A stretch of DNA of 64,000 nucleotides from Escherichia phage ECOP18, in sequence record NC_105825.1, one strand, 5' to 3'. The first letter of the stretch is position 1. The number at the start of each line of letters is the position of its first letter. This document shows, one piece after another, positions 1-12,172 of the stretch. Under the pieces are notes generated by a model that saw nothing but the letters and a program-made list of their open reading frames with translations, was not told the origin of the DNA and did no database searches. The position numbers and the translations under genes are program-made.

Positions 1-57
1 GAAATGGTGAAAGGTATTGATATTTCTACTTTTACCACTAGCACCGAAATCGAGTAA
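1..57 (+). CDS. 3' end of an upstream ORF (partial)
   Basis: Open frame from the window edge to TAA at 55-57, followed by a GC hairpin gtgggga/tccccac at 66-88. Confidence 0.3.
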   Translation, partial: EMVKGIDISTFTTSTEIE

Positions 58-122
58 TAATATTTAGTGGGGATTATTTCCCCACTTTACTATTCCCTTG
101 TTAATTAATAGGAGGCTAACTA

Positions 123-617
123 ATGGCTGAGGAAAAATACGGCTTCTCGCTAGGAGAAGTGAGCACGGCTAAACATGATATGATCATTTTAGTCGATTGT
201 CATACTGGCTATTGCGGAGAAGGGAACACCGAAGAATACTTTGTTCCTGCTGGTACGGATCTGGACGCTTTCGCTCATGAAATGGCTATTGATAATGCTT
301 CTCGTTTTGGTAGCGATGGCTATGAAGACGAAGAAACTGGCGAATGGTATGAAAATGAAAACGTATATGCAAGCCTTTATCATTATCAGCTAAGTAAATC
401 CGGCACATATGTAAACGGCGGCGATCCTATTAATTCCGTCATGAAATTAATTATTAAATATGGTGGCGTCGAGATAATTGATAACAAAGCGGTAATATAC
501 GCAAACCGATTAAAACAGCTTGTTTATATTCCTGATAGTACCCGATGGGATGAATACGCTGTTTTGCATGACGAATTGAAACGATGTTTCAATATTGAAT
601 CCCTGCAAGTAGTCTAA
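123..617 (+). CDS. hypothetical protein (pre-early-like)
   Basis: ORF track 164 aa; RBS aggagg 8 nt upstream of ATG. Confidence 0.6.
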   Translation: MAEEKYGFSLGEVSTAKHDMIILVDCHTGYCGEGNTEEYFVPAGTDLDAFAHEMAIDNASRFGSDGYEDEETGEWYENENVYASLYHYQLSKSGTYVNGGDPINSVMKLIIKYGGVEIIDNKAVIYANRLKQLVYIPDSTRWDEYAVLHDELKRCFNIESLQVV

Positions 618-631
618 TGTAAAGTTTTGTA

Positions 632-660
632 AAGGTCGCCTTTTATGGTGGCCTTTTTTG
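632..660 (+). terminator. putative rho-independent terminator
   Basis: Hairpin aggtcgcc/ggtggcct with G-U pairs followed by tttttt. Confidence 0.4.
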
Positions 661-722
661 TTATAATGCTTTTACACCAAAACGGTGGATTGAAAATTTT
701 CCCAAAAATTTGGAGGCTTAAA

Positions 723-953
723 ATGGTTGCTTATTCTTCTGCTAGTCATCTGTTTACCGCGCAAGGCTGGGTATCTAATCGTGCTGTCATCTATGAAATG
801 GTGCAGGAGTTCGGCATTGCTAAAACTTATAATACCATTCAGGAACTATATAACGCCGATAAAATCGATCAGCAAACGGCTGGCTTTTTACTGGATACCC
901 TGAAAGCTGAACATTGCACTAAAAAACAAGCCGCTAAAATTGTTTTAATGTAA
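723..953 (+). CDS. hypothetical protein
   Basis: ORF track frame; start moved to the ATG preceded by RBS ggagg (MVAYSS...). Confidence 0.5.
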   Translation: MVAYSSASHLFTAQGWVSNRAVIYEMVQEFGIAKTYNTIQELYNADKIDQQTAGFLLDTLKAEHCTKKQAAKIVLM

Positions 954-1002
954 TTAATAACGGGGCGTTACTTTCGCCCCGATAACTAGGAGGCTATCAC
1001 AA

Positions 1003-1152
1003 ATGGTTATTTTTCGATCTATTTTAGCGGGTATCTTGGGCGCTATTTTATCGTTATTTGCGATAGCTTTCGGCGTTCACGCTGTTATTATTGGCGCTGG
1101 CATTGCTGCGTTTTCTTATCTGCTGGGCTGCATGACTAGTAAAGGAGAATAA
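1003..1152 (+). CDS. small hydrophobic membrane peptide (49 aa)
   Basis: Hand-translated; RBS aggagg upstream; one hydrophobic Gly/Ala/Ile-rich segment; below the ORF-track size cutoff. Confidence 0.35.
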   Translation: MVIFRSILAGILGAILSLFAIAFGVHAVIIGAGIAAFSYLLGCMTSKGE

Positions 1153-1154
1153 AA

Positions 1155-1367
1155 ATGATCCGCAACGTTTCCCTTGCACGTTCGAAAGGCTTTAAGCTGG
1201 TGGATGTTAACACGTTCGAGCGGGAAGATTGTAAAATCGAATATGTAGCACGTAACAAAAATGCCTTTCGTGTTACCGAGAAAAAATTTGATAAGCGCGG
1301 CAACGTGATAGCTGAAACAGTTAAACATTTTGCCACCTTTTACGCTGCTTTTCGTGGGGTATTATGA
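1155..1367 (+). CDS. hypothetical protein
   Basis: ORF track 70 aa; RBS aaggag upstream. Confidence 0.5.
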   Translation: MIRNVSLARSKGFKLVDVNTFEREDCKIEYVARNKNAFRVTEKKFDKRGNVIAETVKHFATFYAAFRGVL

Positions 1368-1467
1368 TTCAGCAAATTAAAACGGCTTTTCGTTTTTGGG
1401 GCGTCCTGCCTTCAATTGGTTTTATTCTGATAATTATTAGTCAGCTAATGATCATCGGCGGAACTAT

Positions 1468-1827
1468 TTGGGAGCTATGCAAATGATAATTTATGAAGGC
1501 AATCGCTTTGTTGCTAATTACCGTCCGGCATTATTAGCAAACTATTTAAACCAGCTTTCCCCAGCTTATAAGGGCGTTATTAATATTTATGAGGGAAAGG
1601 CGCATTATAAAATTAATGCGGTCGTTGCCCGTGAACTAGCATTTCAATTTTTGACCTTTGCATCTTGTGACGTTCAGGTTATGGGTGAGGCATTAATCGC
1701 GGAAAATGAAGAGGATTTTATTAATATTTTCCGTAAGGTATGCACTGAGCGCTTGATAATGAAAGGCGCGTATATTCAATCAACTGCGGAAAGTATTGAA
1801 ACAGCATTTCGAAAGGTGGCGCAATGA
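1468..1827 (+). CDS. hypothetical protein
   Basis: ORF track 119 aa; true start may be ATG at 1483. Confidence 0.5.
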   Translation: MGAMQMIIYEGNRFVANYRPALLANYLNQLSPAYKGVINIYEGKAHYKINAVVARELAFQFLTFASCDVQVMGEALIAENEEDFINIFRKVCTERLIMKGAYIQSTAESIETAFRKVAQ

Positions 1828-2050
1828 GATTATATATTTTCGTTGGTAATGTTAAGGCAGCTAATGATTCCGCTGGTGGCGACAACGTTCGCCACCATTG
1901 GCAAAAATATATTTACTAGGAGTTATTATGTCTGGTTTAATGTTTACCTTATTAGTAGTTTATAGCATAATTACGGCAGGAATAGTAACTTATGTTACTA
2001 GTAAAATTTGGCCGGGAATATATGGTAATTTTTAATAACGGAGCGTTATT

Positions 2051-2254
2051 ATGAGCAATAAAATTATTGTAACCAAAATCAGTACAATGGTTGATGTTTT
2101 TTACGTGCCAGATACGCCGGAGAATCGGCAAGCGGTCGAGCGGGGCGAATATGATAAAGTGATTTATGATCACGATGGTTATTATCAGTATTTGGTGGAT
2201 TCCTACGGGGAGGAGGAGAAGATCACGCATCGACTACCGGAGGAGGGTTTATGA
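2051..2254 (+). CDS. hypothetical protein
   Basis: ORF track 67 aa; RBS ggagcg upstream. Confidence 0.45.
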   Translation: MSNKIIVTKISTMVDVFYVPDTPENRQAVERGEYDKVIYDHDGYYQYLVDSYGEEEKITHRLPEEGL

Positions 2255-2404
2255 AACGATGGTTTAATCACTGGTACAAGCGGTTTTTAGTACGCCGTCG
2301 CAAGTCTAGGCATCAAGATGAGTGGCGGGAGTGGGCAAAGCGTAACGGTTGCCCGCTACTATAATAATCACGGGGCGCAACTATCGGGAAGTGCCCCCAA
2401 TTCT

Positions 2405-2427
2405 CAAATGAGAATGATTCTCATTTG
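2405..2427. repeat. perfect 23-bp palindrome caaatgagaatgattctcatttg
   Basis: Read directly; related aaatgagaatcattctcatt palindromes recur at 2790-2920. Confidence 0.7.
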
Positions 2428-2648
2428 ACCGCGCCCGCGATGGTTAGCCTGCTAATGATTAGGGTGTTACGTGTCGCCTTGTGTGATCGTTAGCGAGCTA
2501 ACTAATTTTCAAGCCTCCTCCAATTTTGCCCTTGTTTTAGTATCTCCACCAAAATTAAACGCGTTAGAATGCGATCTAGGACGTTTTAACGCTATATTAG
2601 AATTATTCACTGCGTAGGAATACTGTATATTTATACAGTAGGATAAGC

Positions 2649-2657
2649 TGTGGATAA
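2649..2657 (+). promoter_or_regulatory. DnaA-box-like 9-mer TGTGGATAA
   Basis: Reverse complement of the TTATCCACA consensus; lies next to a ctgttaataa motif. Confidence 0.45.
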
Positions 2658-2721
2658 GTCTGTTAATAACACCCCAAAATGGCTAGGATTCTGTCAAGTC
2701 AAATCGTGCTGTTAATAAGTC

Positions 2722-2730
2722 TGTGGATAA
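2722..2730 (+). promoter_or_regulatory. DnaA-box-like 9-mer TGTGGATAA (second copy)
   Basis: Same 9-mer, again next to ctgttaataa. Confidence 0.45.
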
Positions 2731-2789
2731 CTTAAATAATAGTGTTTCTCACTTCCGTTCTTAAATACGAATCACTATCATTTGCGTTC

Positions 2790-2958
2790 CACTTTCTAAA
2801 TGAGAATCATTCTGCTTTTTAAAGGAGAATCGTTTCACTTCCTGAATAATTCTCACTTCCATTCTTAAATGCGAATTATTATCATTCTCATTCCGCTTTT
2901 TAAATGAGAATCATTCTCATTATCATTCGCATTCAGGCGAGCAGGGCAATTGCCCTGC
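2790..2958. repeat. cluster of inverted repeats (aaatgagaatcattctcatt and gcagggcaattgccctgc)
   Basis: Read directly; non-coding. Confidence 0.6.
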
Positions 2959-2963
2959 GCTTT

Positions 2964-3633
2964 TGTGCAAATCCGACATTGCTCCACGGGTGTTACGTGC
3001 GGGCGTGTATGTGCGAATCCGACAATTTTTGGTAGTGTGCAAATCCGACCCGAAAAATTTTTATAGTGTGCAAATCCGACAATGAATTTTCCTAAAAACT
3101 CCAGCAATCACGAACTGCGTTCGAATCCTGTGGGGTATGTGCAAATCCGACACGGTTTTTCTAGGATTAAGATGTGCGAATCCGACAAGATTTTTGTGAC
3201 TTCGATTGGAGGGTGTGTGATTGTGTGAGTTTGGGGAGAAGTTGAGAGAGCGAGAAAAATTTGAGGGAACTGCGGGAGGGGCGCATGTTTGGTGCGGAGC
3301 ACCTGATTTGCGGGGATTTTGGGGAAGAGTTGAGAAGATTTGGGTTAATTTGAGATTAGTGCAGAAAAAGTAAAATTTTATTAGCTAAATGGAGCAAAAT
3401 AGCTTGACAAGTGAAAATTCTTGTGGCTCTAAAAACTCAGGCAATCATGGGCCTTCGGCCCGAAATAATGCTGCCATTTTCAGGAGATTATGTGTCCATG
3501 AAAACTCAGGCAATCATGGGCCTTCGGCCCGAAATAATGCTGCCATTTTCAGGAGATTATGTGTCCATGAAAACTTAGGCAATTGTGCAAATCCGACCAG
3601 TTTTTAAACTTATGTCAGTGTGCAAATCCGACA
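2964..3633 (+). repeat. iteron-like array, 8 direct copies of TGTGC(A/G)AATCCGAC(A/C)
   Basis: Copies start near 2964, 3010, 3036, 3067, 3138, 3173, 3584 and 3619, each followed by a T-rich spacer; no coding frame. Confidence 0.7.
3432..3587 (+). repeat. 69-bp tandem direct repeat, 2 full copies plus a degenerate third
   Basis: aaaactcaggcaatcatgggccttcggcccgaaataatgctgccattttcaggagattatgtgtccatg repeated exactly at 3432-3500 and 3501-3569; contains hairpin gggcc-ttcg-ggccc. Confidence 0.8.
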
Positions 3634-4077
3634 GTAATTTCTGGAAATGTGTTTTGGAAAAATGCCCTCTAGAAATAACCGCCCTCCCAATAACCGCCCT
3701 GTATTAAACCGCCTAGTATATGTTCCTAGAAACTTAGGAGAACCGCCCTAGAAAGAGGGAGTATTTCGTGAGAACTCTGGAGTTTCTAGGAAAGTGTTGT
3801 GCCATCCTAGCAGAAGAGCGGCAACCGGTGTATCATCTTGAACACAAATATTGCCTTTAAATATTTTTAGTTATTTAAAAGTAAATATACCCCCATTTCA
3901 TGTGAGATTCCTCGTGGGGCGCGTGAGTATTACGGAAGAACTCTAATATTGGCCCGCGCTAAGACTAGCCGCTATAGCACAGACGCAAATAGAGTTGTAA
4001 TAATCATCGCCCCTAGAGTTCACAATAAGAGTTATTGTTAATCTATGAGATTATTATAACATACATTTTTAATAACG

Positions 4078-4833
4078 TCAAGAAGATTTTACTAATGTTT
4101 TTGGATTCTTCTTGGCTTTGAGATATATCCCTTTAGATGCTAGATAGATATATGTTGCTAGAAATGAAGATTCTGATCCCGATTCCTCATAGGTTAACGT
4201 ACCTCTAGGGTATTTATTTGTTTTAGGAGCATAGTTAAGCACAGCCGCAGTTAATGACCCTAATCCTAGAACATCTGCAAGACGTCTAAAGGTATTCTCT
4301 TCATCATGGATAGCATAAAGAATGTTATCTTCAATATCCGTTAATGGAATTTTACGGGTATGAGATACTGCAATCCGTGCTATCATAGCTCCAATTGTTT
4401 TATTAATATCCTCGAAAGAAACACTCTCCATATATTTTAGAGGGGGAAGATGGTCATATTTACATTTCTTAGGTGGAATAAGAAGTTGTTCAGGATAAGC
4501 CTCTAGTGCCTGACGAACGTTTGCTTCTGGATATGTTGGTAAAGGTTCATCTATAATAACATGTAAGAAATTAGCTCTGTGCCCCTTAGCAGTTGGATCT
4601 AAAGACTTCAATATTTTGTTCATATCCACGTATGAATACGCTAGATCTGCTTGAGGAGCATTAATATCAAACTTAATCTTCTTACCTTCCCATTTAGCAG
4701 GGAACATCTCACAAACAAACATTACTGCATGTTTAACATCTGGCTCTAGCTCTGATAGACATTTGTGATCTGCTGTTACTGCTAAAGCGAGTATATTCTT
4801 AAATTTATTAGCTTCTTCAATCATATATCCCAT
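4078..4833 (-). CDS. hypothetical protein
   Basis: ORF track 251 aa; first gene of the minus-strand block. Confidence 0.55.
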   Translation of the reverse strand: MGYMIEEANKFKNILALAVTADHKCLSELEPDVKHAVMFVCEMFPAKWEGKKIKFDINAPQADLAYSYVDMNKILKSLDPTAKGHRANFLHVIIDEPLPTYPEANVRQALEAYPEQLLIPPKKCKYDHLPPLKYMESVSFEDINKTIGAMIARIAVSHTRKIPLTDIEDNILYAIHDEENTFRRLADVLGLGSLTAAVLNYAPKTNKYPRGTLTYEESGSESSFLATYIYLASKGIYLKAKKNPKTLVKSS

Positions 4834-5162
4834 GCCTGCTGACTATTATCACTAACTTGTGTCTTTTTCTTTCTTTGTGGTTTAAAAGCTCCTTTAGTAT
4901 TGCTTCTATTAGGCTCTAATTTATACCACAGCATTCCTAGCTGGTTAACCATATGAGCAACATTTCTAGGAGTCAATGGTGGTAGAAATTCGCAGTTTGA
5001 TATTTCCACTAATATATTAAGTAACTCTGTCTCTTTAGCTTTACTGTTTACTACCACCACGTATTCTAATGTTTCTACCTCGGAATCCTCGTCTTTATAG
5101 TAGAGGCTAAGAGTAATTAAATTGTCACCAGCAGGAGTTATTTTTGTTTTACCAAATATCAT
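4821..5162 (-). CDS. hypothetical protein
   Basis: ORF track 113 aa; tightly packed with neighbours. Confidence 0.5.
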   Translation of the reverse strand: MIFGKTKITPAGDNLITLSLYYKDEDSEVETLEYVVVVNSKAKETELLNILVEISNCEFLPPLTPRNVAHMVNQLGMLWYKLEPNRSNTKGAFKPQRKKKTQVSDNSQQAWDI

Positions 5163-5755
5163 TAATTACCTCTCTTATCTTCATTAATAGCAGCTCCCAA
5201 CGCCTCCATAATAGCATCCTCTAAACTTCCATGTTTACCAGGATTATTAAAATGAATAGTACAAACAGAACTCCTAGAAACTCCAGCATCCACAGGTGCT
5301 ACGCTTCGCATATCAGATTCAAAAGCTTCTTGAGTATGTTTCAACTGCACAGAAGGGCCGTAATCTTCACCAACTCGATAAGATTGATTAGACGACAGCG
5401 TACCACCGCATGGAACATTGTGTAAATCCGATGATTTATTTAACAGTGCAATACCGCCTTTTGACCACGGGTCACTAACAGTGGTACTGGGACGATTTAC
5501 CTCAGTCTTCACGAGTTTATAACCAGCGTCTATTAGTGCATTAATCAGGTTATCAGCTGGGATGCGAGCCGTGCCAAAAATCTTACGAGCATCTTCAAGC
5601 TTACCTTCAAAATCTTTACACGCTCTAAGGTCGGTGTGTGCAAATGTTAGCTTCATAGATTTGAATTGTACAGTAGCAGTTAAATCTTTAAAGCTATAAT
5701 CCCATGTGTTCAGTTCATGGTCTAGTACTAATTGAATAGGTTGTTGTGTAAACAT
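5162..5755 (-). CDS. hypothetical protein
   Basis: ORF track 197 aa. Confidence 0.55.
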   Translation of the reverse strand: MFTQQPIQLVLDHELNTWDYSFKDLTATVQFKSMKLTFAHTDLRACKDFEGKLEDARKIFGTARIPADNLINALIDAGYKLVKTEVNRPSTTVSDPWSKGGIALLNKSSDLHNVPCGGTLSSNQSYRVGEDYGPSVQLKHTQEAFESDMRSVAPVDAGVSRSSVCTIHFNNPGKHGSLEDAIMEALGAAINEDKRGN

Positions 5756-5940
5756 TATTTATTCTCCAGTTTGTCTAACAGTTTATGGGCTGCTAGATTA
5801 TATTGTTTGAGTTCACGATTAAGGATTTGGTTCTCACACTTTAGCTCTAGATTCTTGTTGTTAAGAATGTTGCAGATTAGTAGAAGTGCTAGTATTAGTA
5901 ACAGAGAACCTACGAGCATTAAAAGAAAAAGAGTTTCCAT
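5755..5940 (-). CDS. small membrane protein
   Basis: 61 aa, one hydrophobic helix followed by a coiled-coil-like tail. Confidence 0.45.
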   Translation of the reverse strand: METLFLLMLVGSLLLILALLLICNILNNKNLELKCENQILNRELKQYNLAAHKLLDKLENK

Positions 5941-6173
5941 TATTTAATTCCCATGTAACGTTTGAGATATATGATGAAGTCTTCTGCTGTATGCTCTACG
6001 CTACCTTGAGCTACGAATAGCTTGAGAGCTTCACGTTGTAACTTAAGAGCAGCCAACTCACCCCGTAATTTTACCAGATCTTCTGCTAGTTCTCTAGCTC
6101 TACGCATAATAGCAAAAGATACAAGTACTACGATGAATAACATAACTACTAAAATAATTGCTATGATTTCCAT
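5940..6173 (-). CDS. small membrane protein
   Basis: 77 aa, N-terminal hydrophobic helix. Confidence 0.45.
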   Translation of the reverse strand: MEIIAIILVVMLFIVVLVSFAIMRRARELAEDLVKLRGELAALKLQREALKLFVAQGSVEHTAEDFIIYLKRYMGIK

Positions 6174-6451
6174 ATTAACATCCAGCTTTTATCACACATT
6201 TGGGCATGATCTATCAGTTCATTCATTGATGTGTTGTTATCATAAATGCACTCTAGTATATACTTTCTGTCAAATTCGTCAACCAAATATTCTACATTAT
6301 TTATTACTACTTTATACAGATCTGGGACTAGAGAGCATGTATTTGGTACGGGGCGACTGCTTAAGTCTATTTCATTATAGCCCCATGTTGTTTTAAATAG
6401 TTTGTTACTAAGTGCTGCTAATGGATTTGACCATATAATATAGCTACTCAC
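6161..6451 (-). CDS. hypothetical protein
   Basis: ORF track 96 aa. Confidence 0.45.
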   Translation of the reverse strand: MSSYIIWSNPLAALSNKLFKTTWGYNEIDLSSRPVPNTCSLVPDLYKVVINNVEYLVDEFDRKYILECIYDNNTSMNELIDHAQMCDKSWMLIWKS

Positions 6452-6890
6452 TATTTATCTCCATTCTTAACTTTGAAAACTTATTATACCAAACTATATG
6501 ATTATCGTCAATTACAAATTTATGATAACATGCTGGTACGGTATAAGTTCCATAATCCGTGACACGCTGCACAACCTTGTGTGCACACAGTCGACAACCG
6601 TGCCCTTCTAAATGAGATCTAGCCGTTTGCCAGTAATAACCATCATGATCCGGACAATAGATCTCGACTTGCTGTTGCATTGTTTTATAATTTACACGCT
6701 CATACCCAAAGAAAGCTCCATGAGCTGCAACAGCTTTCTTGATAAATATAAGGTTTAGTGCTTCTTGCTGAAAGTCGGGATGTAGCTGCTTAATCTTATT
6801 TCTATTAATAGATCCATCAGATTTGATAAACCTATTTATTGGGAAGTTGTTAGCTTCCTCGATTAATAATTCATTTACTTTTTCTCTCAT
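6444..6890 (-). CDS. hypothetical Cys/His-rich protein
   Basis: ORF track frame; start moved to internal Met (MREKV) to avoid overlap with the upstream gene; CPDHDGYYW...HGCRLCAH segment. Confidence 0.4.
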   Translation of the reverse strand: MREKVNELLIEEANNFPINRFIKSDGSINRNKIKQLHPDFQQEALNLIFIKKAVAAHGAFFGYERVNYKTMQQQVEIYCPDHDGYYWQTARSHLEGHGCRLCAHKVVQRVTDYGTYTVPACYHKFVIDDNHIVWYNKFSKLRMEINSE

Positions 6891-6891
6891 A

Positions 6892-7116
6892 TTAGATATT
6901 CTCACAGCTAAGGTAGAAGCATTCGTAAGCATCACCAGTAAACTCTTTATCTTGTAGTATACACTTAGCCTGGTCTTGTGGTACTCCGGCATCTAATAAT
7001 TGTTGTTTACTTGGCTTTTCAGCGAATACTTTTACAAAATATTCGCCATCCTGATTATACTCATTTATATCTCTAGTAAGGACATATACTTGCATTTGAA
7101 GTTCCTTGAAACACAA
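6892..7116 (-). CDS. hypothetical protein
   Basis: ORF track 74 aa. Confidence 0.45.
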   Translation of the reverse strand: MCFKELQMQVYVLTRDINEYNQDGEYFVKVFAEKPSKQQLLDAGVPQDQAKCILQDKEFTGDAYECFYLSCENI

Positions 7117-7120
7117 AAGG

Positions 7121-7150
7121 CCAGAACAATTAAGTCCTGGCCTCTAGAAT
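7121..7150 (-). terminator. putative rho-independent terminator
   Basis: Hairpin ggccag/ctggcc followed by a U-rich run on the minus-strand transcript. Confidence 0.45.
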
Positions 7151-7521
7151 TAATGAAGTTGTTTACCACTTCTTAAAATAGTGGCCGTTTCCATAAGATT
7201 TAACGTTGTATCACGCTTTTTGATTTGTTTGTCCAGTTCATCGGTACGTTTGCCAATGTAAGCGTTAATAGCCATATTCATAGCTGAGGCAAGATCTTCT
7301 TTGGTTATCTCTTCATTATCTAAAGCTAATTTAGCTAAAGAATCGAAAGTACTAGAAAGGCCTATAAGATCTGAGGTTTCACTGGCCAAAATAGGGTTAA
7401 TATTATCTATTGTTACTTCTAACATAGAGTTAACAATATCTTCTCCGTCTACTAGACCAGATTCAATATTACTCTCCCATTCCTTCATCTGCTCCAGCAA
7501 GGGATTTTTCTTTTCTGTCAT
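7150..7521 (-). CDS. hypothetical protein
   Basis: ORF track frame; start uncertain (internal Met chosen). Confidence 0.4.
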   Translation of the reverse strand: MTEKKNPLLEQMKEWESNIESGLVDGEDIVNSMLEVTIDNINPILASETSDLIGLSSTFDSLAKLALDNEEITKEDLASAMNMAINAYIGKRTDELDKQIKKRDTTLNLMETATILRSGKQLH

Positions 7522-7930
7522 GGTAGAGATTTCCTGTGTCAGTTGGTAAGAAGGATGATTGCGTTTTAGGTGGATGTTGTTTAGCAATCCAGTTAAGAAT
7601 CAGCACACGACTAGGAACAATATCAGTGTTGTACCAGAAATCGTGAACCCATTGACGAGCATCCTCAAACTTACCAAATTTATACGCTTTCTTAAACAAT
7701 TCAAACCCAAAACAATCTGGTGTAAAGTCTACTTCACGATACTGAATTACTTTAGAACCAGTTAGGTCTTGGATCGCTGCATTAATTTCTGTATGCGAGA
7801 ATTTTGTTTCGTGAAACTTGTTAAAGAATCGGTAGTTGAAGCGTCCGTTCGTTTCGACAAACAACTGGATGAAGAGATCGTTAAATTGGTTATCAAACCA
7901 GTAATTCTGTAGTTGTTGTAGTGCTGTCAT
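7469..7930 (-). CDS. hypothetical protein
   Basis: ORF track 153 aa. Confidence 0.5.
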   Translation of the reverse strand: MTALQQLQNYWFDNQFNDLFIQLFVETNGRFNYRFFNKFHETKFSHTEINAAIQDLTGSKVIQYREVDFTPDCFGFELFKKAYKFGKFEDARQWVHDFWYNTDIVPSRVLILNWIAKQHPPKTQSSFLPTDTGNLYHDRKEKSLAGADEGMGE

Positions 7931-8127
7931 TTACGAACTCCGTTAATCGCCATAATGATGCCTTCGTACATAAAAGGAAGTAACCCAGAAGTATAGAATA
8001 TATTTTCCGTTATTCCTAAATGTCTAAAAAGTATATTAAATAATGCTGTTAGAAACACAACCTGAGGCAGTAGTACAAAATACTCAGTTACGATCTTTGG
8101 TGCCTGATAAACAAGACGTTTTATCAT
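7927..8127 (-). CDS. small membrane protein
   Basis: 66 aa, hydrophobic. Confidence 0.4.
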   Translation of the reverse strand: MIKRLVYQAPKIVTEYFVLLPQVVFLTALFNILFRHLGITENIFYTSGLLPFMYEGIIMAINGVRK

Positions 8128-8226
8128 TGTTTTTAAGTCTCCTTATTACTTTGGCCTGCTCCACAATAATGAAAACTGCGAGCACTAATAGTGCTATTAG
8201 CCCCGCAGTAACTGGTACTAAATCAA

Positions 8227-8553
8227 TCATGGGAGACGCCATACGTAATTAGCTGTCTGTAGGATCTTAGGTGTGTCATTATGATACATTACTACAGACT
8301 TTGGTGAGTAGCTATCAGCTAGTTCTTTACGAATCATTTCACACTCTTCACCAGTATCAATATTTTTAACTATCACTTTCATATTAAGTGGTGTTAATAC
8401 AGAAAGTGGTTTCCAAGAGTCCTCAATTTCAATTCCTACCTTTTTCTCAATTATCCTGATAACTTCTAATGTATCATCCGGAATACTTATATTATTATTC
8501 ACAAACTGTAATATCTCATGTAAGGTATTTAATTCATTAAAATTAAGCTTCAT
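8227..8553 (-). CDS. hypothetical protein
   Basis: ORF track 108 aa. Confidence 0.5.
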   Translation of the reverse strand: MKLNFNELNTLHEILQFVNNNISIPDDTLEVIRIIEKKVGIEIEDSWKPLSVLTPLNMKVIVKNIDTGEECEMIRKELADSYSPKSVVMYHNDTPKILQTANYVWRLP

Positions 8554-8788
8554 CTTTAAGAATGTCCTCTACCATATCACAAGACTGTTGCAATTCATCA
8601 GCAATACGTTTAATATCGGTTTTTGTTACTTTACCAACTAACATCACCAGTAGCATAGAAAAGATAATAAGTGGAACTGGAATAACAAATAAAGCTACCT
8701 TAACAACATTCTTTGGTGCCCATGTGTGGTACTTGGTAACCAGTACACCAACCACAATCAAATAAAACGCTAGAATAAACATTATCAT
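8543..8788 (-). CDS. membrane protein
   Basis: 81 aa, two hydrophobic helices. Confidence 0.45.
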   Translation of the reverse strand: MIMFILAFYLIVVGVLVTKYHTWAPKNVVKVALFVIPVPLIIFSMLLVMLVGKVTKTDIKRIADELQQSCDMVEDILKDEA

Positions 8789-9066
8789 TTTTTAATCTCC
8801 GTAATTATCTGAGCACGCATCACTTTATTAGGTAATTTTGTATTCCCAGCTATTGCTTCAATATTGTTTAGTTTTTCTTTTAGAATATCTGAGCGTCTCT
8901 GTGCTAGTTCAATATCTTGTTCTTGCTCTAGCAAACGGTGGTGTAGTCCATCATTAGTAATAAGCATACTTTCCATGTTTTTTCGTGCGTTTACAACGCC
9001 AATAATTCCACCAATCGCTACTAGCGTAGTAAGAACCAGTAACCCAATAAGAATTTCTGTAATCAT
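8785..9066 (-). CDS. membrane protein with coiled-coil tail
   Basis: 93 aa, N-terminal TM helix. Confidence 0.45.
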   Translation of the reverse strand: MITEILIGLLVLTTLVAIGGIIGVVNARKNMESMLITNDGLHHRLLEQEQDIELAQRRSDILKEKLNNIEAIAGNTKLPNKVMRAQIITEIKK

Positions 9067-9184
9067 TTATTTAATTCCTCTAAAGTAGGTAAGGGTTTTG
9101 TATGATCAAAAGTTTCTATAACAGCGTTAGACCCATGTAGTTCTAAACGTAGTTCATTAGCTCTTTGAACTGCCAACTCTAAAT

Positions 9185-9598
9185 CTAAATACCTAAAGTA
9201 GCCTCCGTGTATTGTAATACTTTCGGCGCTTCTGACCTGGACTCTCCATTGTTGTCGATCTTTTTCCAGGTAACTCCTAAGTACCCCGAATTAGATTGAG
9301 CGATTTTGCTGCGATTATTTTCTTGGGACGTACAATCTTTTAAATTACACCATCTATTATCGTTTCTTATATTATTTAAGTGGTGTACTAGATTTGGAAT
9401 ATATCCCTCCATGTACAAAAAGGCTAATCTATGGGCTGCATATCTTTTTCTACTTATCCCAATAAATATATAGCCATCCTTATCAGGACTACCGGCAATA
9501 CTACCTGCTTTACCCCGCCCTCTACTGACTTTCCTTATAAACACGCCCGTTTCCGGGTGGTATTCAAATAGCTCTTTTAATTTTTCTTGTGTTAGCAT
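9185..9598 (-). mobile_element. HNH homing endonuclease (free-standing)
   Basis: 137 aa; AHRLAF...HHLNNIRNDNRWCNL resembles the HNH His-Asn-His signature. Confidence 0.6.
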
Positions 9599-9870
9599 TT
9601 TTTCTTTAATTGCTTGACTTCACGCTCAAAGCTAGCTGCTCGGCGTTCTGCCACTGCTTGATGCTCCTTAGCAAAGCGTGCCTCTTGTTTTGCTAAGTTA
9701 AAGGCCATAGCGTTCTTGTTAAGAGAATCGTACATCTTCTTCATCGCCGGAATAGACATTTTCATCAGTTGCCCCTCAAATCCTTGCATGTCGAGAAGAA
9801 TTGCTAATACATTGGCCATTTCAGTCTTGGTAAGGTTAGAGGCGTCGAAGTCTTTAGTCATGTTTTCCAT
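9592..9870 (-). CDS. hypothetical protein
   Basis: ORF track frame; start moved to MENMTK downstream of the conserved promoter leader. Confidence 0.5.
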   Translation of the reverse strand: MENMTKDFDASNLTKTEMANVLAILLDMQGFEGQLMKMSIPAMKKMYDSLNKNAMAFNLAKQEARFAKEHQAVAERRAASFEREVKQLKKKC

Positions 9871-9902
9871 TAGAATTTCCTCTCTCATTAATTTATGAAC
9901 TT

Positions 9903-9931
9903 ATTATACAGAATTTTAAGGCTTAAAGCAA
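9903..9931 (-). promoter_or_regulatory. early sigma70-type promoter (TTGCTT-17-TATAAT)
   Basis: Minus-strand -35 TTGCTT and -10 TATAAT, 17-bp spacer, AT-rich upstream, conserved leader. Confidence 0.6.
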
Positions 9932-9948
9932 CTGAATTTTTTAATTAC

Positions 9949-10380
9949 TTACCAATCGTTAACAACGCCGGAGAACTCAGAAGCAAAAACTTTTTCAAAT
10001 TTCTCTGCAATTTCAGGATGATCTTTGCAGATCAGCTCAATACAGGCTTCTGGAGTCATTCCTTCATCTTCAGGATCACCGTAATACTTGTCCCAAAGAT
10101 CATCAGGGATGATGTGCTCTGCCAAATCTTGGAAAGAGATTAGCTGATAACGTTCTGCTTCCTCAGGGAGGAGGATTTCACAAAGATCTTTATCTATGTC
10201 ACTACGGTAATCAGCAATTAGCAGGGCATTGCAAGCATGACACTCCCAAACCATCAAGCGCTCAGAAATAGGATTAGACTTATCCTGAACGTAGGACTGA
10301 AACAGGGTTCGGAAAGTAGCTTTAACTTGTTCAAACTTATCTGCTGCTGCAAAAACTAGAGCTTTATCAACTTTGTTCAT
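9949..10380 (-). CDS. hypothetical protein
   Basis: ORF track 143 aa; RBS in the conserved leader. Confidence 0.55.
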   Translation of the reverse strand: MNKVDKALVFAAADKFEQVKATFRTLFQSYVQDKSNPISERLMVWECHACNALLIADYRSDIDKDLCEILLPEEAERYQLISFQDLAEHIIPDDLWDKYYGDPEDEGMTPEACIELICKDHPEIAEKFEKVFASEFSGVVNDW

Positions 10381-10410
10381 TTTTATTCCTTCTCATCAAT
10401 TTATAAAGTA

Positions 10411-10439
10411 ATTATACAGAAACTTAGGCATTTTAGCAA
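10411..10439 (-). promoter_or_regulatory. early sigma70-type promoter (TTGCTA-17-TATAAT)
   Basis: Same architecture as 9903-9931. Confidence 0.6.
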
Positions 10440-10539
10440 ATAAAACTTTTAATTAAAATGCCTAGTCCTGTGCCAATAGCAATACAAATGATTATAAGTA
10501 TTGCTACTGTTTGTATTACTCGTTTAATAATACCCATGA

Positions 10540-11936: not shown

Positions 11937-12172
11937 ATAACATTTAAAATAGTTGTACCATAATTATTTGATAGTTTTAGAGTATAACCATCTTTATAGA
12001 GGGCTTTTATAGCTTCATAACTAATTTCATCACGATTAAATTGTATAAAAGAACCCCCAGCCTCTACAGAAGCTAGAATCCGTCTTTTAACGTATCTATA
12101 CGGCTTCTTTCTGCTCTTGAGAAGAGCAGCTCTATTAACTCTAGCTAAACGTTTTGCTTGCTCTGCTAACAT
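11927..12172 (-). CDS. hypothetical protein
   Basis: ORF track 81 aa; RBS aggagg in the leader. Confidence 0.5.
   Translation of the reverse strand: MLAEQAKRLARVNRAALLKSRKKPYRYVKRRILASVEAGGSFIQFNRDEISYEAIKALYKDGYTLKLSNNYGTTILNVIWE

What the first reader, a model, noticed from the sequence alone, without database searches (positions are those of the whole stretch)
2964..3633. Eight-copy 15-bp iteron-like array
TGTGC(A/G)AATCCGAC(A/C) recurs eight times in direct orientation, each followed by a T-rich spacer, at irregular spacing of about 25 to 430 bp. This looks like an array of binding sites for a sequence-specific protein (origin iterons, partition sites or a packaging/injection-control site) rather than coding sequence.
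Basis: seen in the sequence. Interest (0 to 1): 0.5.

Follow-up and report, generated by a model that had tools for sequence, protein, structure and literature searches.

The report
T5 injection-stop region DRD repeat array
The eight-copy motif is real, but it is the already described "DRD" direct-repeat array at the inner end of the terminal repeat of T5-like phages (the annotated injection stop signal region); it is conserved as far as Vibrio phages, and nobody has yet tested what it does.

Summary
There are eight exact, same-strand copies of TGTGCRAATCCGACM at 2964-3633 and nowhere else in the 64-kb window. The window is a T5-like phage (Tequintavirus, closest to Escherichia phage vB_EcoS_MM-1). 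[quoted passage not shown] Its function has never been tested.

My analysis adds the following:
- The core GTGCAAATCCGA persists in phages of Klebsiella, Pectobacterium and Vibrio, while spacers and flanking genes diverge.
- Repeat columns are 94% conserved, against 72% for spacers.
- All copies are co-oriented.
- In most lineages examined the first copy abuts the CCYGCGC context of the T5 7.9% nick.
- The two clusters flank the right boundary of the terminal repeat, which is the physical genome end, in every lineage with documented ends.
- No such arrays occur in host chromosomes.
- Of two candidate readers, the pre-early protein A2 keeps an invariant helix-turn-helix, while the small terminase's helix-turn-helix-like segment varies.

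The best reading is a phage-protein binding array that controls two-step DNA transfer, probably by docking A2/A1 (about 0.4). The main rival is terminase recognition of the genome end (about 0.25). An origin-iteron or partition role is poorly supported.

The parts
2964..2978 (+). DRD copy 1 (TGTGCAAATCCGACA); starts 4 nt after the GCGC of the nick context
   Evidence: homologous to T5 9752
3010..3024 (+). DRD copy 2 (TGTGCGAATCCGACA)
3036..3050 (+). DRD copy 3 (TGTGCAAATCCGACC)
3067..3081 (+). DRD copy 4
3138..3152 (+). DRD copy 5. Its position differs by 10 bp among relatives (spacings 71+35 or 81+25, with a constant sum of 106).
3173..3187 (+). DRD copy 6, the last copy inside the terminal repeat
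3584..3598 (+). DRD copy 7, the first copy outside the terminal repeat (cluster 2)
3619..3633 (+). DRD copy 8 (cluster 2). The ninth, degenerate copy seen in T5 and some relatives is absent here.
2953..2996 (-). Context of the T5 7.9% major nick: CCCTGCGC (2953-2960; nick predicted between 2960 and 2961 on the minus strand), with GTTAC at 2992-2996. DRD copy 1 lies between the two halves.
   Evidence: T5 annotation; shared context CCYGCGC|N~30|RTTAC at the four distinct annotated T5 major nick sites
3190..3400 (+). G-rich, C-poor spacer between the two clusters (GC skew +0.6 to +0.7). The same character is seen in the Vibrio phages.
3404..3429 (+). Terminus element TTGACAAGTGAAAATTCTTGTGGCTC. 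The terminal repeat, and so the physical right genome end, ends at 3429|3430.
   Evidence: Six genome records end at this sequence, 243-245 bp after copy 6. A TTGACAA element lies 20-28 nt before the end in T5, My1 and VF16.
5419..5432 (+). Degenerate isolated copy (TGTGTAAATCCGAT) inside a minus-strand gene. It is exact in T5 (12153) and many relatives. It encodes SDLH, so coding constraint may explain it.

Best explanation
The array is the 'DRD' direct-repeat family of the T5-type injection stop signal region (Repeat Region 3), at the junction between the left terminal repeat and the early genes. That identification is shown.

The rest is inferred. Each copy is a binding site (core GTGCAAATCCGA, with a downstream T-tract in enterobacterial lineages) for one conserved, phage-encoded, sequence-specific protein. 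The co-oriented sites assemble a polar nucleoprotein complex on the stretch of DNA that sits at the cell envelope when first-step transfer (about 8% of the genome) pauses. In that case the array is where the A1/A2 machinery docks, in a defined orientation, to hold and then resume DNA entry (second-step transfer). The neighbouring host-type boxes (DnaA, LexA-like, Fur-like) would be separate elements of the same module.

My confidence by level:
- It is the known DRD/iss array: about 0.97.
- It is a protein-binding array: about 0.8.
- It acts in two-step transfer: about 0.4.
For: Identity:
- The window is 95-99.9% identical to a Tequintavirus and 87% identical to T5 over the array.
- T5 has the same motif at 9752-10477, inside or next to the feature annotated 'injection stop signal (iss) 9140..10149'.
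- Davison lists 'nine DRD repeats' in Repeat Region 3.

Binding-site character:
- Repeat columns are 94% conserved, against 72% for spacers.
- The same 12-mer persists in Klebsiella phages, Pectobacterium My1, and Vibrio phages Skimmer, VF16 and phi 3 (T5 A1 matches the sampled Vibrio phage records at 31-35% identity), with different spacing and copy number.
- Copy 5 shifts by exactly 10 bp between variants.
- All 12 exact copies in T5 are on one strand.

Link to transfer:
- Copies 1-6 lie at 8.0-8.2% of T5, which is the first-step transfer end. Copy 1 starts 3-4 nt from the 7.9% nick.
- The CCTGCGC-then-first-copy arrangement recurs in Klebsiella and Vibrio phages.

Phage rather than host reader:
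- A paired-motif scan of 185,579 species genomes found no array in Enterobacterales or Vibrionales chromosomes.
- Resemblance to a DnaA box (8/9) is lost in lineages where TGTG becomes GGTG or AGTG, while the AATCCGA half stays invariant.

A2 as reader:
- A2 is reported to be a DNA-binding dimer that binds A1 and is needed for second-step transfer.
- Its helix-turn-helix-like block (…IA..VGA.S…VRSKL…) is invariant from T5 to a Vibrio phage.
- That block models as a confident helix-turn-helix (pLDDT >90).
- The small terminase's N-terminal helix-turn-helix-like segment has no invariant residue across a similarly broad set of homologues, again including the Vibrio phage.
Against: - No experiment addresses these repeats. 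A 2023 paper states that functional studies of the region are lacking, and a 2026 preprint still describes the iss only as repeat-rich.
- Davison's own model places the stop signal in the DnaA-box inverted repeats to the left and assigns the DRD copies no role.
- Two or three copies lie beyond the terminal repeat and beyond the annotated iss. The two clusters flank the genome terminus in every lineage with documented ends, which fits a packaging role equally well.
- A2's sequence specificity is unknown. The structure search gave no significant match, only weak partial hits to small helix-turn-helix domains.
- Only two candidate readers were compared.
- An invariant helix could be conserved for reasons other than reading this motif.
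- Homing-endonuclease insertions of 600-700 bp inside cluster 1 are tolerated, so no rigid higher-order geometry is required.
Confidence: 0.4

Rival explanations
1. The array is a terminase recognition (pac-like) site. The small terminase, or another packaging protein, binds the co-oriented copies on both sides of the cut that creates the right end of the terminal repeat. Because the left end is ejected first, that right end is presumably the first DNA packaged. The arrangement would be comparable to the repeated elements that flank the cut in P1 pac or SPP1 pacL/pacR.
For: - The physical right end falls between cluster 1 and cluster 2. It lies 243-245 bp after copy 6 in six independent records, and at the equivalent place in Pectobacterium My1 and in Vibrio VF16, where PhageTerm defined it.
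- In each case the end lies 20-28 nt after a TTGACAA element.
- The only stretch of this region that BLAST still detects in the most distant Klebsiella-phage hits is this terminus element.
- The T-tracts beside the copies suggest DNA bending.
- T5 encodes a TerS homologue.
Against: - There are no copies at the other terminal-repeat boundary, which terminase must also cut.
- The terS gene is not adjacent to the array.
- The TerS N-terminal helix-turn-helix-like segment has no invariant residue across lineages that share an invariant DNA motif.
- The distance from the copies to the cut varies (86-245 bp in T5, and different in the Vibrio phages).
- Extra copies lie at 10% and 65% of the T5 genome.
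- In the Skimmer record all copies lie outside the repeat, but that boundary assignment is doubtful.
Confidence: 0.25
2. The copies are sites for a conserved host DNA-binding protein, either weak DnaA boxes or an unidentified factor. That protein would tether or titrate on the entering DNA, as Davison proposes for the nearby DnaA boxes.
For: - The reverse complement of most copies, ATTTGCACA, matches TTWTNCACA at 8 of 9 positions.
- The module also carries consensus DnaA boxes, a 19/20 LexA-type box and Fur-like palindromes.
- First-step arrest happens before any phage protein is made.
Against: - The DnaA-like half degrades to 7/9 in the G variants and in the My1 and Vibrio lineages, whereas the non-DnaA half AATCCGA is the invariant part.
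- No paired copies occur in host chromosomes.
- I could not match the motif to any host regulator site that I know of. That is recollection, not a test.
Confidence: 0.1
3. The copies are replication-origin iterons, bound by a phage initiator next to DnaA boxes and AT-rich repeats.
For: - Direct repeats lie beside DnaA boxes and AT-rich repeats, which is a plasmid-origin-like layout.
- The nick next to copy 1 could offer a 3'-OH for strand-displacement synthesis (the T5 polymerase annotation is).
- T5 encodes a protein annotated as 'origin binding protein'.
Against: - No initiator gene is adjacent, and the neighbouring genes have no recognisable domains.
- The 'origin binding protein' matches only the helicase core of the herpesvirus family (profile positions 51-197 of 820).
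- T5 origins were mapped near the genome centre, according to Davison.
- Spacing is irregular (13-90 bp) and variable across lineages.
Confidence: 0.08
4. The copies are targeting signals for the T5 nicking enzyme.
For: Copy 1 starts 3-4 nt from the 7.9% nick, and a tandem pair lies about 360 bp to the right of the 64.8% nick.
Against: The annotated major nick sites share CCYGCGC|N~30|RTTAC, but those at 18.5%, 32.6% and 64.8% have unrelated sequence where the 7.9% site has copy 1. Only one of the eight or nine array copies is next to a nick.
Confidence: 0.03

Closest known systems
DRD direct repeats of phage T5 Repeat Region 3 / injection stop signal (Heusterspreute 1987 and Wang 2005 as cited by Davison; Davison 2015; Davison 2020, bioRxiv 10.1101/866236; GenBank AY543070 feature 'iss')
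   Same: It has the same motif, order, spacing and strand. It has the same neighbours: DnaA-box inverted repeats, DRE/DRC repeats, the 7.9% nick and the end of the terminal repeat. The DNA is 87% identical to T5 over the array.
   Different: This window has 8 copies rather than 9, because the degenerate ninth is missing. Copy 5 sits 10 bp from its T5 position. A private 69-bp tandem duplication widens the gap between the two clusters.
Terminase recognition arrays (lambda cosB R sites, P1 pac hexamer repeats, SPP1 pacL/pacR)
   Same: Short repeated elements, with bent or AT-rich DNA, flank or adjoin the site where the genome end is cut.
   Different: No binding by TerS has been shown. The TerS helix-turn-helix-like segment is not conserved although the motif is. 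The array is absent from the other repeat boundary and is not next to the terminase genes. This comparison rests on my recollection of those systems.
Plasmid and phage origin iterons (for example P1 oriR, or the lambda O-binding repeats)
   Same: Multiple direct repeats lie near DnaA boxes and AT-rich DNA.
   Different: There is no adjacent initiator gene. The repeat is shorter (12-15 bp) and irregularly spaced. The reported T5 origins are elsewhere.
Conjugative oriT regions (a nic site plus accessory-protein repeats)
   Same: A strand-specific nick sits immediately beside an oriented array of repeats, at a position where DNA transfer is controlled.
   Different: T5 DNA enters as a duplex from a virion. 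No relaxase is known. The nick motif occurs elsewhere in the genome without the repeats. This is an analogy only.

Membership tests
T5 DRD repeats / iss region (Repeat Region 3) | It lies in the large untranslated region at the inner end of the left terminal repeat of a T5-like phage. | tested here: met
   The window aligns to Tequintavirus genomes at about 9.4-11.2 kb. The LTR annotation of MM-1 and the LTR and iss annotations of T5 overlap the array.
T5 DRD repeats / iss region (Repeat Region 3) | The repeat sequence and order are the same as in T5. | tested here: met
   T5 carries TGTGCRAATCCGAC at 9752, 9798, 9824, 9855, 9936, 9961, 10305 and 10340, plus 10477 with 1 mismatch. Spacings match apart from the 10-bp shift of copy 5 and the 69-bp duplication.
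T5 DRD repeats / iss region (Repeat Region 3) | It is syntenic with the DnaA-box inverted repeats (IRD'spacerIRC') and the DRE repeats to its left. | tested here: met
   DnaA and DnaA* box pairs lie at 2649/2661 and 2710/2722. The 68-104-bp DRE-type repeats lie at 2746-2917.
T5 DRD repeats / iss region (Repeat Region 3) | It acts in cis to stop first-step DNA transfer. | not testable with these tools
   The papers I read report no experimental test of these repeats.
Terminase pac/cos recognition site | It lies next to the terminase cut that makes a genome end. | tested here: met
   The terminal-repeat end falls between copies 6 and 7 in T5-like records, and between the two clusters in My1 and VF16. 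The array is absent from the other boundary.
Terminase pac/cos recognition site | It is bound by the small terminase, whose DNA-reading element should co-vary or co-conserve with the site. | tested here: not met
   TerS residues 29-50 (helix-turn-helix-like) have no invariant position across lineages that share the invariant motif. Binding itself cannot be tested here.
Origin iterons | There is an adjacent gene for an initiator that binds the repeats. | tested here: not met
   The flanking ORFs have no Pfam domains and belong only to PHROG families of unknown function.
Origin iterons | DnaA boxes and AT-rich DNA lie beside the repeats. | tested here: met
   Consensus DnaA boxes lie 230-320 bp to the left, and the repeats at 2740-2935 are AT-rich (33% GC).
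Origin iterons | Replication starts there. | not testable with these tools
   Davison cites mapping of T5 origins near the genome centre.
Partition site (parS / centromere) | There are adjacent parA/parB-type genes. | tested here: not met
   No such domains were found in the neighbouring ORFs.
DnaA boxes | The sequence matches TTWTNCACA, and that match is the part kept by selection. | tested here: not met
   The A variants match at 8/9. The G variants and the My1 and Vibrio copies match at 7/9. The invariant half (AATCCGA) lies outside the DnaA box.

The most novel reading that the evidence does not exclude
The DRD array is the missing cis-acting handle of T5's two-step injection. It would be a polar docking site, conserved from Escherichia to Vibrio phages, on which the pre-early helix-turn-helix protein A2 (with A1) assembles to grip the paused DNA and drive or license second-step transfer. 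The same array may double as the landmark for the genome terminus. That would explain why the end of first-step transfer and the end of the terminal repeat coincide across the family.
Probability: 0.25. Interest if true: 0.65.

Novelty: already known. Interest (0 to 1): 0.33.

Why it matters
How T5 stops DNA entry at 8% of the genome and then restarts it has been unexplained since the 1960s. The repeat-rich 'iss' region is the only candidate signal, and none of its elements has been tested. This analysis shows that one element is under strong selection across the whole phage family: a 12-bp motif that is co-oriented, sits beside the nick and flanks the genome terminus. It also shows that A2, but not TerS, keeps an unchanged putative recognition helix. 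That narrows the problem to a simple binding experiment and a small set of point mutants. The array itself, however, is a textbook-level known feature of T5, so the finding as reported is not a discovery.

Tried and rejected
- Coding sequence. The MM-1 record annotates a dozen 31-50-aa ORFs across the region, but curated T5 annotates none. The pattern of conserved cores with variable spacers, a 10-bp shift, a 69-bp duplication and homing-endonuclease insertions is not that of a gene.
- RNA element. Rfam gave no hit at E<=1 over 2300-4300. The scan found no promoter-like site that reads rightward through the array.
- Nickase signal. Rejected because the other major nick sites lack the motif.
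- 'Floating' repeat boundary. I first took Vibrio phage Skimmer, where all copies lie outside the repeat, as evidence against a packaging role. I withdrew this after VF16 (boundary set by PhageTerm) and phi 3 showed the T5-like arrangement, and after Skimmer's boundaries proved to differ from the VF16-homologous positions at both ends.
- Host regulon. The paired-motif scan of bacterial genomes gave 8 hits. One is a T5-like fragment binned into a MAG. Of the other seven, none is from an enterobacterial or Vibrio host; those whose context I read look like unrelated tandem repeats, and L252, which I followed up, is an intergenic 18-bp duplication upstream of ffh.
- Origin-binding protein as reader. 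Only the helicase core matches the herpesvirus family.
- Shared sequence between the two terminal-repeat boundaries. Nothing meaningful was found.
- Structure search of the A2 model. No significant match; a PDB sequence-profile search found nothing.
- Papers. The Davison 2015 paper is not held in the library. A search for T5 terminase or pac-site studies found nothing relevant.

Full report
**1.

- The pattern TGTGCRAATCCGACM occurs eight times without mismatch, all on the + strand, starting at 2964, 3010, 3036, 3067, 3138, 3173, 3584 and 3619.
- Allowing two mismatches adds only one hit elsewhere in 64 kb (38959). Shuffled sequence gives 0.34 hits on average, and none of 100 shuffles reached nine.
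- Start-to-start spacings are 46, 26, 31, 71, 35, 411 and 35.
- The T-rich stretch after each copy is real. Over 114 distinct copies from close relatives, the T fraction is 0.6-0.8 at +7 to +9 after the 12-nt core.

**2. Where the window comes from**

- The region matches 545 phage records. The best is Escherichia phage vB_EcoS_MM-1 (Demerecviridae, Tequintavirus), at 95% identity over 1.9 kb and 99.9% over the array. Phage T5 itself is 87% identical.
- Window position 1 corresponds to about 7 kb from the left genome end.
- In the curated T5 record AY543070 the homologous stretch carries three features:
  - the end of the left terminal repeat (1..10219);
  - a feature 'injection stop signal (iss)' at 9140..10149;
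  - a 'major DNA single-chain interruption' at 9748/9749 on the minus strand.
- T5 has the same motif at 9752, 9798, 9824, 9855, 9936, 9961, 10305 and 10340, and a one-mismatch ninth copy at 10477.
- Davison's preprint on T5 two-step injection lists 'nine copies of direct repeat DRD' among the elements of 'Repeat Region 3' and says these were characterised previously.

**3. What the literature says about function**

- T5 injects about 8% of its genome, pauses, makes the pre-early proteins, and needs A1 and A2 to bring in the rest. Why it stops and how it restarts are unknown.
- Davison proposes that the paired DnaA boxes left of the array bind membrane-associated DnaA, and that A1/A2 cut to the right of the block. 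He assigns no role to the DRD copies and says the model is 'too simplistic' for that reason.
[quoted passage not shown] **4. Distribution in a complete genome**

- In T5, every exact or one-mismatch copy is on the + strand.
- Six copies lie in the left terminal repeat, and so occur again in the right one. Three lie just beyond it.
- One exact copy lies at 12153 inside gene T5.019. A tandem pair lies at 78935/78950 inside D13.
- Outside the array there are two exact 12-mer cores, against 0.03 expected.
- The 12153 copy encodes SDLH. In this window it is degenerate through a synonymous and a neighbouring change (5419), so coding constraint may explain it.
- The D13 pair encodes VQILQVQIRQ and is conserved in at least nine other T5-like genomes. 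I could not decide whether these isolated copies are functional.

**5. Conservation**

- Thirty-five loci from the viral contig collection carry the array with the architecture 46, 26, 31, then 71+35 or 81+25, about 343, 35, sometimes a ninth copy at +137, and the isolated copy about 1.8 kb on.
- The 71+35 versus 81+25 alternative moves copy 5 by 10 bp, one helical turn.
- In an alignment of 15 distinct arrays, repeat columns are 94% identical to the window, against 72% for the spacers within the array.
- The 69-bp tandem duplication at 3422-3559 is private to this window.
- Some relatives carry 600-700-bp insertions inside cluster 1, at places where homing endonucleases are annotated.
- The protein encoded just right of the array falls to 24-46% identity across phages that keep the motif unchanged.

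**6. Depth in the family**

- Klebsiella T5-like phages (SEL21, Roth39) keep the whole module in order:
  - DnaA-type box pairs;
  - 35-bp AATCATTCTCATTCGCATT repeats;
  - CCTGCGC followed by the first copy;
  - two clusters of ATGTGCAWWWCCGAY;
  - AACCGCCCT repeats.
- Pectobacterium phage My1 (A1 66% identical) has AGTGCAAATCCGAY copies.
- Vibrio phages Skimmer, VF16 and phi 3 have (A/T)GGTGCAAATCCGA or GGTGCAAAACCGA copies (T5 A1 matches the sampled Vibrio phage records at only 31-35% identity, and Skimmer at 31%). These again follow a CCTGCGC-type context, again have a G-rich spacer, and are preceded by DnaA boxes and a CTGTATAWATATACAG palindrome.
- The invariant core across all lineages is GTGCA-W3-CCGA.

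**7. Relation to the nick**

- The four distinct annotated T5 major nick sites share CCYGCGC|N~30|RTTAC.
- Only the 7.9% site has a DRD copy between the two halves.
- The array is therefore next to a nick site, but it is not the nick signal.

**8. Relation to the genome terminus**

- Six independent records end at …TTGACAAGTGAAAATTTCTGTGGCTC, 243-245 bp after copy 6. This places the terminal-repeat boundary at window 3429|3430, between the two clusters.
- The same layout holds in My1 and in VF16, whose repeat was defined with PhageTerm. The layout is: cluster 1, G-rich spacer, a TTGACAA element 20-28 nt before the end, then cluster 2.
- phi 3's annotated boundary falls at the end of its cluster, inside a duplicated block.
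- In the Skimmer record all copies lie outside the repeat. However, its boundaries differ from the VF16-homologous positions at both ends, and it retains the homologous terminus element further in. I therefore treat that record as unreliable and draw nothing from it.
- No copy lies near the other repeat boundary, and the two boundaries share no meaningful sequence.

**9. Host or phage reader?**

- The reverse complement of the A-variant copies matches the relaxed DnaA box at 8/9. That match decays to 7/9 in the G variants and in My1 and the Vibrio phages, whereas the half irrelevant to DnaA is invariant.
- A scan of one genome from each of 185,579 bacterial and archaeal species for two copies 5-35 nt apart found eight places. 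One is a T5-like fragment in a MAG. The other seven come from unrelated organisms; those whose context I read look like unrelated tandem repeats, and the one I followed up (L252) is an intergenic 18-bp duplication upstream of ffh. None is in an enterobacterial or Vibrio chromosome.
- This favours a phage-encoded reader. It cannot exclude a host protein whose own sites are single or degenerate.

**10. Which phage protein?**

- Neighbouring ORFs have no recognisable domains.
- The two obvious candidates are the small terminase (T5.156, PHROG 'terminase small subunit') and A2 (PHROG 'DNA binding protein').
- A2 is reported to be a DNA-binding dimer that associates with A1 and the membrane and is required for second-step transfer.
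- Between T5 and Skimmer, both proteins are about 42-43% identical overall.
- In a 12-sequence alignment spanning the family, A2 has an invariant block …L-x2-I-x5-A-x-S-x3-V(RS)KL-x5-Y-x-K-x-D… followed by a basic PRKVGG…RK.HYVR segment.
- An AlphaFold model (mean pLDDT 84.6) places residues 41-50 and 55-64 as a helix-turn-helix, with VRSKL in the second helix.
- TerS has no invariant residue between D28 and E51, the N-terminal helix-turn-helix-like segment. Its conservation is central and C-terminal.
- If a reader must keep its recognition element while the site stays unchanged, A2 fits and the TerS N-terminus does not.
- This is an inference from two candidates only. The fold search gave no significant match (best partial hits were small helix-turn-helix domains with E>=1).

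**11. Verdict on mechanism**

*Shown:*
- The array is the DRD family of the T5 iss region.
- It is under stronger constraint than its surroundings.
- It is co-oriented.
- It abuts the nick context.
- It flanks the terminal-repeat end.
- It is family-wide.

*Inferred:*
- It is a protein-binding array (about 0.8).
- It acts in the pause or restart of DNA transfer (about 0.4).

The strongest rival is a packaging/terminus role (about 0.25). Location alone cannot separate these two, because the first-step end and the repeat end coincide throughout the family. One array could serve both roles. Origin iterons, host-factor sites and nickase targeting are less likely, for the reasons given above.

**12. 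Novelty and interest**

The feature is already known and named, and the window is nearly identical to a deposited genome. The comparative points are, as far as the papers I could read show, not in the literature:
- the reach into Vibrio phages;
- the shared strand polarity;
- the bipartite nick context;
- the terminus lying between the clusters across lineages;
- the contrast between A2 and TerS.

These points make an old question directly testable. They are modest additions to a known element, so I score interest at about 0.33.

Noticed in passing
window 2621-2640: TACTGTATATTTATACAGTA matches the E. coli LexA (SOS) box consensus at 19 of 20 positions and is the only such hit in 64 kb. The same CTGTATAWATATACAG palindrome sits beside DnaA boxes in Vibrio phages Skimmer, VF16 and phi 3. 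Davison's preprint names palindromes here but contains no mention of LexA or SOS.
   Followed up: partly
window 2799-2935 (e.g. 2903-2921) and 2407-2425: Perfect 9-1-9 palindromes AATGAGAATCATTCTCATT resemble Fur boxes, with up to 16/19 matches to GATAATGATAATCATTATC at 2906 on the minus strand. Six hits with 5 or fewer mismatches fall in 2871-2924, against 17 in the whole window and 5.8 in shuffles. This is notable for a phage family whose type member uses the iron-regulated receptor FhuA.
   Followed up: partly
L003/L004 (T5) 9748, 22336, 39746, 78573; window 2953-2996: The annotated T5 major nick sites share a bipartite context, CCYGCGC|N~30|RTTAC, which is longer than the 5'-NPu|GCGCN-3' consensus quoted in the GenBank notes. 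The same context precedes the array in a Vibrio phage.
   Followed up: partly
window 3190-3400: The spacer between the two clusters is extremely G-rich and C-poor (GC skew +0.6 to +0.7), and this character is conserved in Vibrio relatives. A leftward transcript from the early genes would be C-rich and G-poor here, like a Rho utilisation site. G-quadruplex potential was not tested.
   Followed up: no
window 3422-3559: A 69-bp tandem duplication (94% identical copies) begins at the terminal-repeat boundary. Each unit carries a GGGCCTTCGGCCC hairpin. T5 and MM-1 have a single unit, and only about 7% of aligned relatives share the extra unit.
   Followed up: partly
window 4081-4053 (minus strand): A strong promoter-like site (TTGACG, 17 nt, TG-TATAAT; 11/12 matches) at the 3' end of the first early gene points leftward into the non-coding region. 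T5 has TTGACA/TATCAT at the homologous place, and the -10 region is better conserved than its flanks. No ORF of 40 aa or more was listed in the first 340 bp downstream of it.
   Followed up: no
L004 (T5) 78935-78964; about nine IMG/VR loci (L160, L168, L172, L174, L209, L215, L231, L234, L246): A tandem pair of the motif (TGTGCAAATCCTAC, one intervening base, then GGTGCAAATCCGAC) lies inside the SbcC-like gene D13, on the same strand as the array and about 360 bp to the right of the 64.8% major nick. It is conserved in many T5-like genomes and encodes VQILQVQIRQ.
   Followed up: partly
window 3677-3749: Four AACCGCC(C)T copies (3677, 3692, 3706, 3741) follow cluster 2. The same short repeat follows the array in T5 and in Klebsiella phages.
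   Followed up: no
L128/L129 (Vibrio phage Skimmer PQ768831) versus L259/L260 (VF16 LC811684): Skimmer's terminal-repeat boundaries, as recorded, lie +47 nt (left) and about -400 nt (right) from the positions homologous to VF16's PhageTerm-defined ends. The Skimmer record's repeat may therefore be mis-assigned.
   Followed up: partly
L250 (SABI01000336.1, 'Spirochaetia bacterium' MAG contig, 2589 bp): This contig carries cluster 2 of the array plus the AACCGCCCT repeats. It is evidently a T5-like phage fragment binned into a MAG.
   Followed up: no
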